Of a stretch of DNA of 64,000 nucleotides, positions 39,372 through 40,982 are shown piece by piece; the stretch's first letter is position 1; every line of letters starts with the position of its first letter. A program made the position numbers and the translations under genes. The notes under the pieces were generated by a model, which saw only the letters and a list, made by a program, of their open reading frames with translations, ran no database searches and was not told the origin of the DNA. Location of the stretch: assembly GCF_054482595.1 (NCBI RefSeq), contig NZ_JBTHVH010000001.1; one strand, given 5' to 3'. This DNA comes from a plasmid.

Positions 39372-40100
39372 ATGAAAGGCGAAGTGAAAGAGCGCGGCAT
39401 GATTTTCAACGATGAGATGGTCCGGGCCATCCTCGAAGGAAGGAAAACGCAGACGCGGCGGATAATGAAAAATCAGCCTGCGGAAGTTGGTCCAGAAGCA
39501 CCAGTGATGGTTAGAAAAATTGGTGCAGGTTTTCAGTGGTACGGGGCTGATGGTGTAAGCAGTGTTTTCAATTGCCCATTTGGTATCGTCGGCGATCGAA
39601 TTTGGGTTCGTGAAACATGGGCGATATTAGGCAATGAGGATGGTTGCAGTGTGGACTGGAACGACAACCTTTGTCGTGGCGATGAGAAGAACGCAGCAAG
39701 GATTTATCGGGCCAGTTGCGAGCAAAAACCTGGTGATTACGGCTTATGGTCGATACCCGATGATGCCGACTGGAAACCTCACACTGTGAATGAAAAGTTT
39801 GATGGTGGGTGGCGTCCATCAATTCACATGCCGCGATGGGCATCACGCATTCTGTTGGAAATTACCAACGTGCGCGTTGAACGGTTGAACGATATCAGCG
39901 AATGCGATGCAAGGGCTGAGGGCGTTCCGCCTGCTGGAAGTTTGCTTCCTGATCACCCGGGAACATTCCTTACTCCCAAGGGGGATTTCGCAATGGCCAA
40001 GGTTGCGTTCCAGCGCCTGTGGGAATCCATCTATGGTGAAGAAAGCTGGAACGCTAATCCCTGGGTGTGGGTAATCGAGTTTAAGCGCATTCAGGAATAA
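39372..40100 (+). CDS. ASCH-like domain protein
   Basis: N-terminal EMVRAILEGRKTQTRR...GDRIWVRETW block. Confidence 0.4.
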   Translation: MKGEVKERGMIFNDEMVRAILEGRKTQTRRIMKNQPAEVGPEAPVMVRKIGAGFQWYGADGVSSVFNCPFGIVGDRIWVRETWAILGNEDGCSVDWNDNLCRGDEKNAARIYRASCEQKPGDYGLWSIPDDADWKPHTVNEKFDGGWRPSIHMPRWASRILLEITNVRVERLNDISECDARAEGVPPAGSLLPDHPGTFLTPKGDFAMAKVAFQRLWESIYGEESWNANPWVWVIEFKRIQE

Positions 40101-40103
40101 ACC

Positions 40104-40982
40104 GTGAGTATGCATCAAGTCGTCAGCTTTTCAGGTGGACGAACATCGGCTTATCTCGTTCATCTGATGGAAGCACAGCGAAAAGCTGGCGCTAGCGTCC
40201 ATTTCATTTTTATGGATACCGGCTGTGAACATCCTCTGACGTATCGCTTTATTCGTGAGGTTGTGAAGTTCTGGAACGTACCGCTAACGGTGTTGCAGGT
40301 CGATATAAATCCAGAACTTGGGCAGCCAAATGGTTATACGGAATGGGAACCAAAGGATATTCAGACGCGAATGCCGGTGCTTAAACCGTTTATGGACATG
40401 GTTAAAAAGTACGGTACGCCATACATCGGCGGCGCGTTCTGTACCGACAGGCTAAAACTCACCCCTTTCACGAAATATTGCGATGACCATTTTGGGCGAG
40501 GGAATTACATCACATGGCTCGGTATTCGTGCGGACGAACCCCGTAGGCTGAAACCGAAACCGGGCGTCCGGTATCTTGCCGAACTGTCAGATTTTGATAA
40601 GTCGGATGTTATCCGGTGGTGGCGAAAACAACCTTTTGATTTGCAAATCCCGGAGCACCTCGGGAACTGTGTTTTTTGCATCAAAAAGTCAACGCAAAAG
40701 CTGGGGCTTGCATGTAAAGACGAACCAGGTCTGATGCGGGTTTTTAATGAACTGGTTACAGGCAAACACGTCAGGGATGGTCATCGCAGAACAGGTAAAG
40801 ACGTTATGTACCGTGGCCACCTGACGCTTGACGGGATTGCCAGAATGTATGCCGACAGTGACTACAGAAATTTGTATCAGGCGATGGTGCTGGCCAAGCG
40901 GTTTGATACTGGTTCGTGTTCCGAATCATGTGAAATCTGGGGTGACCAATTGGAGTTGAAATTCGAAGAGGTAGTGGAATGA
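40104..40982 (+). CDS. PAPS-reductase-like PP-loop protein
   Basis: VSFSGGRTS PP-loop motif near N-terminus. Confidence 0.5.
   Translation: MSMHQVVSFSGGRTSAYLVHLMEAQRKAGASVHFIFMDTGCEHPLTYRFIREVVKFWNVPLTVLQVDINPELGQPNGYTEWEPKDIQTRMPVLKPFMDMVKKYGTPYIGGAFCTDRLKLTPFTKYCDDHFGRGNYITWLGIRADEPRRLKPKPGVRYLAELSDFDKSDVIRWWRKQPFDLQIPEHLGNCVFCIKKSTQKLGLACKDEPGLMRVFNELVTGKHVRDGHRRTGKDVMYRGHLTLDGIARMYADSDYRNLYQAMVLAKRFDTGSCSESCEIWGDQLELKFEEVVE

What the first reader, a model, noticed from the sequence alone, without database searches (positions are those of the whole stretch)
39372..40982. Adjacent ASCH-like and PAPS-reductase-like (PP-loop) genes
A protein with an N-terminal ASCH-like block is followed 4 bp later by a 292-aa protein with the SGGxxS PP-loop of the PAPS-reductase superfamily. 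In phages this superfamily is repeatedly associated with nucleic-acid modification rather than sulfate assimilation; the pairing suggests an RNA or DNA modification or anti-restriction function.
Basis: inference. Interest (0 to 1): 0.45.

Follow-up and report, generated by a model that had tools for sequence, protein, structure and literature searches.

The report
P1 pmgT beside lambda-type ninC
Two real but unlinked accessory genes of a P1-like E. coli phage-plasmid sit side by side: an intact copy of P1 pmgT (an ASCH-fold, YqfB-like predicted hydrolase) and a close copy of phage lambda ninC (a PP-loop enzyme whose nearest tested relative helps a Vibrio phage escape Dnd restriction); the adjacency comes from one recombination event and is not a conserved two-gene system.

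Summary
Both ORFs exist as described: 39372-40100 (242 aa) and 40104-40982 (292 aa), with a 3-nt gap. The window is a P1-like phage-plasmid.

- **ORF2** is 80% identical to lambda NinC. It has a PAPS-reductase-like fold with a canonical SGGRTS PP-loop, no CysH ECGLH motif, and conserved cysteines. It is 55% identical to the PAPS domain of Vibrio phage 44E38.1 p0018, a PAPS-Dam fusion linked experimentally to escape from Dnd restriction.
- **The pairing is not conserved.** Only 5 of 80 NinC-like viral loci have PmgT next door, and all five belong to this one P1-like lineage. Only 2 of 80 PmgT-like loci have any PAPS-like ORF within 4 kb. The junction is a mosaic boundary: P1 homology ends at 40066 and Stx-phage homology starts at 40105.

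The inference drawn from the pairing does not. These are known orphan genes with untested functions, so interest is modest.

The parts
39177..39193 (+). P1 C1-repressor operator (OpmgT/Op88) with the pmgT promoters just downstream; places the operon under immunity control
   Evidence: ATTGCTCTAATAAATCT matches the C1 operator consensus with 1 mismatch; 11 matches in the window against 0.02 expected by chance. It is collinear with the annotated OpmgT and P1/P2pmgT of phage P1.
39372..40100 (+). pmgT homologue (242 aa): split ASCH / PUA-like beta-barrel of the YqfB type (GxKxxTxR octapeptide); predicted N4-acyl-cytosine-type amidohydrolase
   Evidence: Sequence and family:
- 96% identical to P1 PmgT up to residue ~232; phrog_874 E 6.8e-95.
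- Family-invariant K25, R29, R30, E81, E183; near-invariant T28.
- 45,690 clusters at 50% identity with E<=1e-3.

Structure:
- AF2 pLDDT 87.8.
- hhalign maps GRKTQTRR onto YqfB GRKTITIR.
40067..40104 (.). Mosaic junction between P1-type DNA and lambdoid/Stx-phage-type DNA
   Evidence: P1 homology ends at 40066. Stx2 phage PA2 homology (92%) starts at 40105.
40104..40982 (+). ninC homologue (292 aa): PP-loop ATP-pyrophosphatase of the PAPS-reductase superfamily with conserved Cys113, 126, 189, 192, 272 and 276
   Evidence: Homology:
- 80% identity to lambda NinC over 285 aa.
- Pfam PF01507 E 2.8e-9; phrog_424 E 4e-93; PADLOC SspD E 1.8e-13, N-terminal half only.
- 55% identity to the PAPS-Dam protein of Vibrio phage 44E38.1.

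Structure and motifs:
- AF2 pLDDT 87.4 with a disordered Cys-bearing tail.
- Conserved motifs from the 47-sequence alignment.
40979..41182 (+). 67-aa ORF (phrog_1226) overlapping the ninC stop; it travels with this ninC allele in Stx phages but not with other ninC alleles
   Evidence: phrog_1226 E 2.7e-42. It lies immediately downstream of NinC in 19/80 loci, all with NinC >=93% identical. Lambda-type alleles carry ninD there instead, in 16/80 loci.
40067..45260 (+). 5.2-kb block of lambdoid-type accessory genes (ninC, orf67, Ead/Ea22, phrog_9263, DUF551 proteins and others) that reference P1 lacks
   Evidence: P1 matches window 34600-40066 and resumes at 45261, at the same P1 coordinate. Gene content.

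Best explanation
These are two independent, cotranscribed accessory genes in the C1-repressed pmgT operon of a wild P1-like E. coli phage-plasmid. They were brought together by one recombination event.

ORF1 is the intact form of P1 PmgT. It is an ASCH-fold protein that keeps the Lys-Thr-Arg...Glu constellation of YqfB-type N4-acetylcytidine amidohydrolases. It most likely hydrolyses an N4-acyl group on cytosine, for example ac4C in tRNA or a free nucleoside. This step is inferred.

ORF2 is an orthologue of lambda NinC. It is an ATP-using PP-loop enzyme that would adenylate a substrate and then transfer sulfur through its conserved cysteines or a possible Fe-S site. It most likely acts on DNA as a counter-defence enzyme against phosphorothioate-based (Dnd/Ssp-type) restriction. 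This is inferred from a 55%-identical domain with that phenotype, and from recurrent fusion or adjacency to Dam methylases.

What is shown: gene identities, folds, conserved residues, the mosaic junction and the lack of conserved synteny. What is inferred: substrates and biological roles.
For: Identity and context:
- The window is P1-like.
- A C1 operator lies upstream.
- The genes are 3 nt apart on the same strand.

ORF1:
- hhalign puts K25/T28/R30 on YqfB K21/T24/R26. A pairwise alignment puts E183 on E74 and the final strand WVIEFK on YVIEFK.
- These residues are invariant or near-invariant in 71 diverse homologues.
- Mutating YqfB K21, T24 or R26 abolished activity, and E74A cut turnover 100-1000-fold (PMC6972931).
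- All 19 ASCH proteins tested removed ac4C from tRNA (bioRxiv 10.64898/2026.02.27.708502).

ORF2:
- 80% identical to lambda NinC.
- Canonical PP-loop and no ECGLH motif.
- Conserved Cys set.
- Fold closest to APS/PAPS reductases and Fe-S tRNA thiolases.
- P0213, the PAPS-Dam protein of Vibrio phage 44E38.1, is 55% identical. Transferring it together with p0019 into a sensitive phage gave Dnd escape. The sensitive phage already carried a 96%-identical stand-alone Dam.
- Dam methylation alone does not block DndFGH (PMC10470545).
- A Dam gene is fused or adjacent in 6/80 loci from three NinC identity groups.

No functional pair:
- 5/80 NinC loci have PmgT adjacent, all from a single lineage.
- 2/80 PmgT loci have a PAPS-like ORF nearby.
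- PmgT occurs alone in Klebsiella and E. albertii prophages and in P1.
- NinC occurs alone in lambda and Stx phages.
- Phage 813R1 keeps pmgT but has lost ninC through a 789-bp deletion.
- Only 34 of 418 plasmid records with a match carry both genes.
Against: - No biochemical or genetic test exists for PmgT or NinC themselves. Both are dispensable for plaque formation: lambda ninC and P1 pmgT.
- Lambda, which carries ninC, is still restricted 3- to 60-fold by three Dnd systems. NinC alone is therefore not a strong anti-Dnd factor, at least from its delayed-early position in lambda.
- In the Vibrio experiment the PAPS-Dam gene was moved together with a second gene, p0019, so the PAPS domain was not isolated as the cause.
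- ORF2 scores far below the DndC model cut-off (17.8 vs 290.4 bits). It has no DndD/E- or SspB/C-like neighbours.
- ORF1 does not reach Pfam's ASCH threshold and has no sequence-level hit to any solved ASCH structure. It is more than twice the size of YqfB, so its substrate may differ.
- Residue equivalences were not checked in 3D.
Confidence: 0.6

Rival explanations
1. The two proteins form a functional pair acting in sequence on one nucleic-acid substrate. For example, the ASCH protein recognises or de-acylates a cytosine and the PP-loop enzyme then adenylates and modifies it.
For: - Same strand, 3-nt gap, same C1-controlled operon.
- Both folds belong to families that act on nucleic-acid bases.
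- The upstream neighbour pap is a PNKP-type 3'-phosphatase domain.
- The phage encodes a tRNA with a CAU anticodon, the anticodon class that carries ac4C or lysidine at C34 (the link is from general knowledge).
Against: - Adjacency is seen only in one near-identical lineage: 5/80 and 2/80 loci.
- The boundary coincides with a recombination junction.
- Close relatives keep one gene and lose the other.
- NinC's flanking genes differ between allele groups.
Confidence: 0.07
2. ORF2 is a tRNA- or RNA-modifying PP-loop enzyme, doing thiolation or a lysidine-like modification as TtcA, TtuA, NcsA or TilS do, rather than a DNA-directed counter-defence enzyme.
For: - A CxxC pair plus a distal Cys resembles the Fe-S ligands of TtuA/TtcA (the comparison is from general knowledge).
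- Weak NCBIfam TilS hit, E 0.0033.
Against: - No RNA-binding accessory domain is present.
- The recurrent fusion or adjacency is to a DNA adenine methylase.
- The only phenotype for a relative concerns a DNA-modification-based defence.
- The best profile match among characterised families is SspD.
Confidence: 0.15
3. ORF2 is an auxiliary metabolic gene: a true PAPS/APS reductase that boosts host sulfate assimilation, as database names imply.
For: - PHROG and GenBank product names.
Against: - Similarity to CysH is limited to the first ~100 residues.
- No ECG[LI]H catalytic tail.
- It keeps the SGGxxS ATP-pyrophosphatase loop that CysH has lost.
- It scores 21.9 bits against the 154-bit cut-off on the CysH equivalog model.
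Confidence: 0.03
4. ORF1 is a non-catalytic ASCH/PUA-like reader that binds a modified base in DNA or RNA, like EVE, YTH or SRA domains, or it has a virion-assembly role as its historical name ('putative morphogenetic function') implies.
For: - P1 annotation.
Against: - The exact YqfB-type catalytic residues are invariant across very divergent homologues.
- The gene sits in early or immunity-controlled regions of lambdoid prophages, not in structural modules.
- P1 pmgT knock-down has no plating defect.
Confidence: 0.15

Closest known systems
Phage lambda NinC (nin region, 290 aa)
   Same: 80% identity over 285 aa. Same length, PP-loop and cysteine motifs. Same PHROG.
   Different: Here it lies in a C1-repressed P1 operon after pmgT, not between ninB and ninD in the lambda PR operon. 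This allele is closest (92% DNA identity) to the copy in the early-left region of Stx2 phages. NinC's function is untested.
Phage P1 PmgT (P1_gp095)
   Same: 96% identical over the first ~232 residues, with the same upstream operator and promoter.
   Different: The window's protein is 242 aa and ends with the family-conserved strand WVIEFK. Reference P1 PmgT (309 aa) diverges after NPWV into an unrelated 77-aa tail, apparently through loss of the 5.2-kb block.
E. coli YqfB, N4-acetylcytidine amidohydrolase (ASCH, PDB 9KYF)
   Different: - 242 aa against 103 aa, with a ~65-residue insertion and extra C-terminal helices.
- YqfB His70 is Asp179 here.
- Below Pfam's ASCH threshold.
- Activity not tested.
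PAPS-Dam fusion p0018 of Vibrio phage 44E38.1 (anti-Dnd locus; Piel et al., bioRxiv 10.1101/2021.05.05.442762)
   Same: The PAPS domain is 55% identical across 96% of ORF2 and has the same conserved motifs.
   Different: ORF2 has no fused Dam domain, and no Dam gene was found in the window by tblastn. The anti-Dnd phenotype was shown for p0018 plus p0019 together.
DndC / SspD / BrxP (PAPS-reductase-domain sulfurtransferases of DNA phosphorothioation systems)
   Same: PP-loop PAPS-reductase domain. SspD is the best-scoring characterised profile: E 1.8e-13 over the N-terminal half.
   Different: - Far below the DndC equivalog cut-off (17.8 vs 290.4 bits).
- No DndD/DndE or SspB/SspC partner genes nearby.
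- Much shorter than DndC; the DndC models run to 447-481 positions.

Membership tests
ASCH domain (PUA-like beta-barrel; Pfam PF04266) | ASCH beta-barrel fold | tested here: met
ASCH domain (PUA-like beta-barrel; Pfam PF04266) | Reaches the Pfam ASCH model threshold | tested here: not met
   The window protein has no ASCH hit even at E<=1. Of 71 family members, 37 match only weakly, with a best E of 1.2e-4.
ASCH domain (PUA-like beta-barrel; Pfam PF04266) | Conserved octapeptide GxKxx[E/T/S]xR | tested here: met
   G23-R-K25-T-Q-T28-R-R30. K25 and R30 are invariant and T28 is >=90% conserved. Motif definition.
YqfB-type N4-acylcytosine amidohydrolase | Catalytic Lys-Thr-Glu triad plus oxyanion Arg (YqfB K21/T24/E74/R26) | tested here: met
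   Equivalents are K25/T28/E183/R30, by hhalign and pairwise alignment. All are conserved in the family. Residue roles from PMC6972931. 3D superposition of the side chains was not checked.
YqfB-type N4-acylcytosine amidohydrolase | Small single-domain (~100 aa) architecture | tested here: not met
   242 aa with an insertion between residues ~86 and ~148.
YqfB-type N4-acylcytosine amidohydrolase | Hydrolysis of ac4C / N4-acylcytosines | not testable with these tools
   Needs an enzyme assay.
PAPS/APS reductase (CysH) | PAPS-reductase alpha/beta fold | tested here: met
PAPS/APS reductase (CysH) | C-terminal catalytic Cys in the ECG[LI]H motif | tested here: not met
   No ECG[LI]H in the sequence; the tail reads GSCSESCE.
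PAPS/APS reductase (CysH) | Reaches the CysH equivalog model score | tested here: not met
   NF002537 scores 21.9 bits against a 154-bit cut-off. CysH has SSFGIQ where ORF2 has SGGRTS.
Lambda NinC family (phrog_424) | Full-length homology to lambda NinC | tested here: met
   80% identity over 285 aa. phrog_424 E 4e-93.
DndC (DNA phosphorothioation sulfurtransferase) | Reaches the TIGR03183 equivalog score | tested here: not met
   17.8 bits against a 290.4-bit cut-off.
DndC (DNA phosphorothioation sulfurtransferase) | Encoded with DndD ATPase and DndE (or SspB/SspC) partners | tested here: not met
   Neighbouring genes are pmgT, orf67, Ead/Ea22 and DUF551 proteins. The four neighbours scanned gave no PADLOC hits.
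SspD | Match to the SspD profile | tested here: inconclusive
   PADLOC SspD E 1.8e-13, 48.8 bits, but only residues 5-148 against profile positions 2-121 of 277.
Phage PAPS-Dam anti-Dnd protein (Vibrio phage 44E38.1 p0018) | Homologous PAPS domain | tested here: met
   55% identity, 96% coverage. Shared motifs.
Phage PAPS-Dam anti-Dnd protein (Vibrio phage 44E38.1 p0018) | C-terminal Dam methyltransferase domain | tested here: not met
   ORF2 ends at 292 aa. tblastn found no Dam-type sequence in the window.
Phage PAPS-Dam anti-Dnd protein (Vibrio phage 44E38.1 p0018) | Confers escape from Dnd restriction | not testable with these tools
   Needs plating assays. Indirect counter-evidence: lambda (ninC+) is still restricted by Dnd.
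Conserved ASCH + PP-loop two-gene system | Adjacency conserved across divergent lineages | tested here: not met
   5/80 NinC loci, all with NinC >=98% identical; 2/80 PmgT loci.

The most novel reading that the evidence does not exclude
The PmgT family is a very large group (over 45,000 clusters at 50% identity) of phage-borne, catalytically intact YqfB-type ASCH hydrolases. On this reading, temperate phages use it early in infection to erase N4-acetylcytidine, or a related N4-acyl mark, from host or phage nucleic acid. A candidate target is tRNA with a CAU anticodon, and this phage encodes one such tRNA. That would be a previously unrecognised form of epitranscriptome takeover or counter-defence. 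In this lineage it could also cooperate with NinC.
Probability: 0.12. Interest if true: 0.65.

Novelty: already known. Interest (0 to 1): 0.28.

Why it matters
Lambda ninC and P1 pmgT have been sequenced for decades, and neither has an assigned function. Two testable leads come out of this work. First, NinC is a near relative of the only phage PAPS-domain protein with a phenotype (Dnd escape). Second, PmgT keeps the catalytic residues of ac4C amidohydrolases. Confirming either would assign a function to a very widespread phage gene family. The adjacency that prompted the finding carries no information of its own.

Tried and rejected
- **Sequence searches of PmgT against solved structures.** A single sequence, a 71-sequence profile, and an insert-deleted core all gave nothing usable. 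Only the fold search worked.
- **Naive global pairwise alignment of PmgT with YqfB.** It misplaced the N-terminal motif and scored only z 1.8 against shuffles. I used hhalign for that part.
- **A conserved partner gene for NinC.** I looked immediately up- and downstream. The flanks differ by allele group: orf67 in 19/80 loci, ninD in 16/80, and a 147-aa ORF upstream in 7/80. No fixed partner exists.
- **ORF 44992-45849 as a second ASCH paralogue.** This would have explained the P1 deletion by homologous recombination. No similarity was found.
- **Literature search for pmgT.** It returned only unrelated uses of the string. The published version of Piel et al. was not held, so I cite the preprint.
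- **AFDB fold libraries.** They were unavailable, so I could not rank DndC/SspD models against CysH by structure.
- **Promoter and terminator consensus scans.** They were at or below shuffle expectation and were not used.

Full report
**Observation**

The window holds two + strand ORFs at the stated coordinates: 39372-40100 (242 aa, ATG) and 40104-40982 (292 aa, GTG). A second possible start, ATG at 40110, coincides with the lambda NinC start. The two ORFs are separated by 3 nt. ORF2 carries SGGRTS at residues 10-15 and matches Pfam PAPS_reduct at E 2.8e-9, though only over residues 6-72. ORF1 has no Pfam hit.

**Where the window comes from**

The region is a P1-like phage-plasmid.
- Reference P1 matches window 34600-40066 at 99% identity and resumes at 45261.
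- The full 1.6-kb pair is 100% identical to ~95-kb E. coli plasmids. Only 34 of the 418 plasmid records with any match carry both genes.
- A P1 C1 operator sits at 39177-39193 (one mismatch; 0.02 matches expected by chance). It is collinear with the annotated OpmgT and PpmgT of P1.
- The genes therefore belong to an immunity-controlled early operon.

**ORF1 is PmgT, an ASCH fold of the YqfB type**

ORF1 is 96% identical to P1 PmgT up to residue ~232 and falls in phrog_874, a family of unknown function. The family is very large: 45,690 clusters at 50% identity with E<=1e-3.

A 71-sequence alignment shows two conserved blocks, residues ~6-85 and ~148-240, around a variable insertion. K25, R29, R30, E81, M153, R159, E183 and W233 are invariant, and T28 is nearly so.

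Residue equivalences with YqfB:
- hhalign aligns GRKTQTRR with YqfB GRKTITIR, giving K25=K21, T28=T24 and R30=R26.
- A pairwise alignment places E183 on E74, D179 on H70, and the last strand WVIEFK on YVIEFK.

In YqfB, mutating K21, T24 or R26 abolishes activity, and E74A lowers turnover 100-1000-fold (PMC6972931). A 2026 preprint reports that all 19 ASCH proteins tested remove ac4C from tRNA, and it defines the GK[T/S]R subgroup to which this motif belongs.

The fold spans the whole protein rather than an N-terminal block. At the Pfam level the evidence is weak: 37 of 71 relatives hit ASCH sub-threshold, and this protein does not hit at all.

**ORF2 is NinC, a PP-loop enzyme that is not CysH**

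ORF2 is 80% identical to lambda NinC over 285 aa. Its DNA is 92% identical to the copy in the early-left region of Stx2 phages.

Sequence similarity to CysH stops after ~100 residues. Where CysH has SSFGIQ, ORF2 keeps the ATP-pyrophosphatase loop SGGRTS. There is no ECG[LI]H motif, and the CysH equivalog model gives 21.9 bits against a 154-bit cut-off.

The family conserves C113, C126, C189, C192 (GNCxFC) and C272/C276 (GSCSESCE tail). That pattern fits an Fe-S or persulfide sulfur-transfer site; this is an inference and was not tested. DndC is not matched (17.8 vs 290.4 bits). SspD is the best characterised profile, but only over the N-terminal half.

**What is known about relatives of NinC**
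- One homologue, P0213, is 55% identical over 96% of ORF2. It is the "Dam methyltransferase with PAPS reductase domain" of Vibrio phage 44E38.1.
- Piel et al. moved this gene, together with the neighbouring p0019, into a Dnd-sensitive sister phage. That phage already had a 96%-identical stand-alone Dam. The recombinants escaped Dnd.
- Dam methylation alone does not block DndFGH.
- A 2026 preprint also lists phage PAPS reductases among candidate anti-defence genes.
- Dam-type genes are fused or adjacent to NinC-like genes in 6 of 80 viral loci, drawn from three identity groups.
- Against a strong role: lambda, which has ninC, is still restricted by three Dnd systems, with EOP 0.016-0.3. ninC is dispensable in lambda, as pmgT is in P1.

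**The pairing**

P1 homology ends at 40066 and Stx-phage homology begins at 40105, so the gene boundary is a mosaic junction.
- Of 80 NinC-like loci from viral contigs, only 5 have a PmgT gene next door. All five have NinC >=98% identical, meaning this same lineage.
- Of 80 PmgT-like loci, 2 have any PAPS-like ORF within 4 kb.
- PmgT homologues stand alone in Klebsiella and E. albertii lambdoid prophages and in P1.
- NinC stands alone in lambda and Stx phages.
- The P1-like phage 813R1 keeps pmgT but has a 789-bp internal deletion of ninC.
- NinC's other neighbours also change with the allele group.

The adjacency therefore gives no evidence of a joint function.

**Verdict**

These are two real, known orphan genes with correct superfamily calls. 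They are cotranscribed but brought together by a single recombination event.
- Best mechanistic reading for PmgT: a YqfB-like N4-acyl-cytosine amidohydrolase.
- Best mechanistic reading for NinC: an ATP-dependent, cysteine- or Fe-S-based sulfurtransferase-like enzyme acting on DNA as a counter-defence against phosphorothioate-based restriction.

Both readings are inferred and need the experiments listed. Novelty is low, and interest is modest because the two leads are directly testable.

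Noticed in passing
window 40067-45260 versus P1 NC_005856 position 85182: Reference P1 lacks this 5.2-kb block. Its annotated 309-aa PmgT diverges after ...NPWV into an unrelated 77-aa tail and lacks the family-conserved last strand WVIEFK, which is also present in YqfB. The laboratory P1 pmgT therefore looks like a deletion-fusion allele, probably non-functional, and the window holds the intact gene.
   Followed up: partly
L002 (phage vB_EcoM-813R1) 5567-5572, versus window 40173-40961: This P1-like phage keeps the first ~69 nt and the last ~20 nt of ninC but has lost 789 bp between them. ninC is therefore readily lost within the lineage.
   Followed up: yes
window 39276-39362 (+): A small ORF of 28 aa from the ATG at 39276, with AGGAG 8 nt upstream. 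It encodes a hydrophobic peptide (MNTAFKIIMAAIYFWLFSITFGGIVAHG). It lies between the C1 operator and pmgT and is not annotated in P1.
   Followed up: no
window 38671-39177 (+): The P1 pap gene matches only the HAD phosphatase domain of polynucleotide kinase-phosphatase (PF25109, E 5e-12). There is no kinase domain.
   Followed up: no
window 2122-2207 (+), 52412-52499 (+), 58868-58953 (-); also 52309-52386 (+): Three C4 antisense RNA genes lie in one 64-kb window. Two have a1/b1 target elements, and the third sits beside an isrK-like sRNA. This is more immunity-RNA loci than the single c4 usually described for P1 immI (the P1 comparison is from general knowledge).
   Followed up: no
window 23859-23934, 23937-24012, 25817-25892 (+): Three phage tRNA genes: Asn(GTT), Thr(TGT) and one with a CAT anticodon. 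The CAT tRNA reads as Met or Ile depending on the C34 modification. This matters only for the speculative ac4C reading of PmgT.
   Followed up: no
L058, L062, L063 (~3489-3983); L081, L083; L089 3965-5446: A Dam-type methyltransferase lies immediately upstream of, about 2.3 kb downstream of, or fused to NinC-like genes in 6 of 80 viral loci. These come from three NinC identity groups. This association recurs more than the PmgT one does.
   Followed up: partly
window 44992-45849 (+): This 285-aa ORF spans the right-hand junction of the 5.2-kb block. Its residues ~206-285 (phrog_3797) lie on the stretch where P1 homology resumes (window 45261-45607 = L001 5467-5813), which overlaps the annotated P1 pmgT tail and pmgU (L001 5507-5842). 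Its N-terminal part matches DUF551-associated PHROGs.
   Followed up: no
window 42349-42936 (+): A 195-aa protein with strong PHROG hits of unknown function (phrog_9263, E 7e-124) and no Pfam, NCBIfam or PADLOC match. It lies inside the lambdoid-type block.
   Followed up: no
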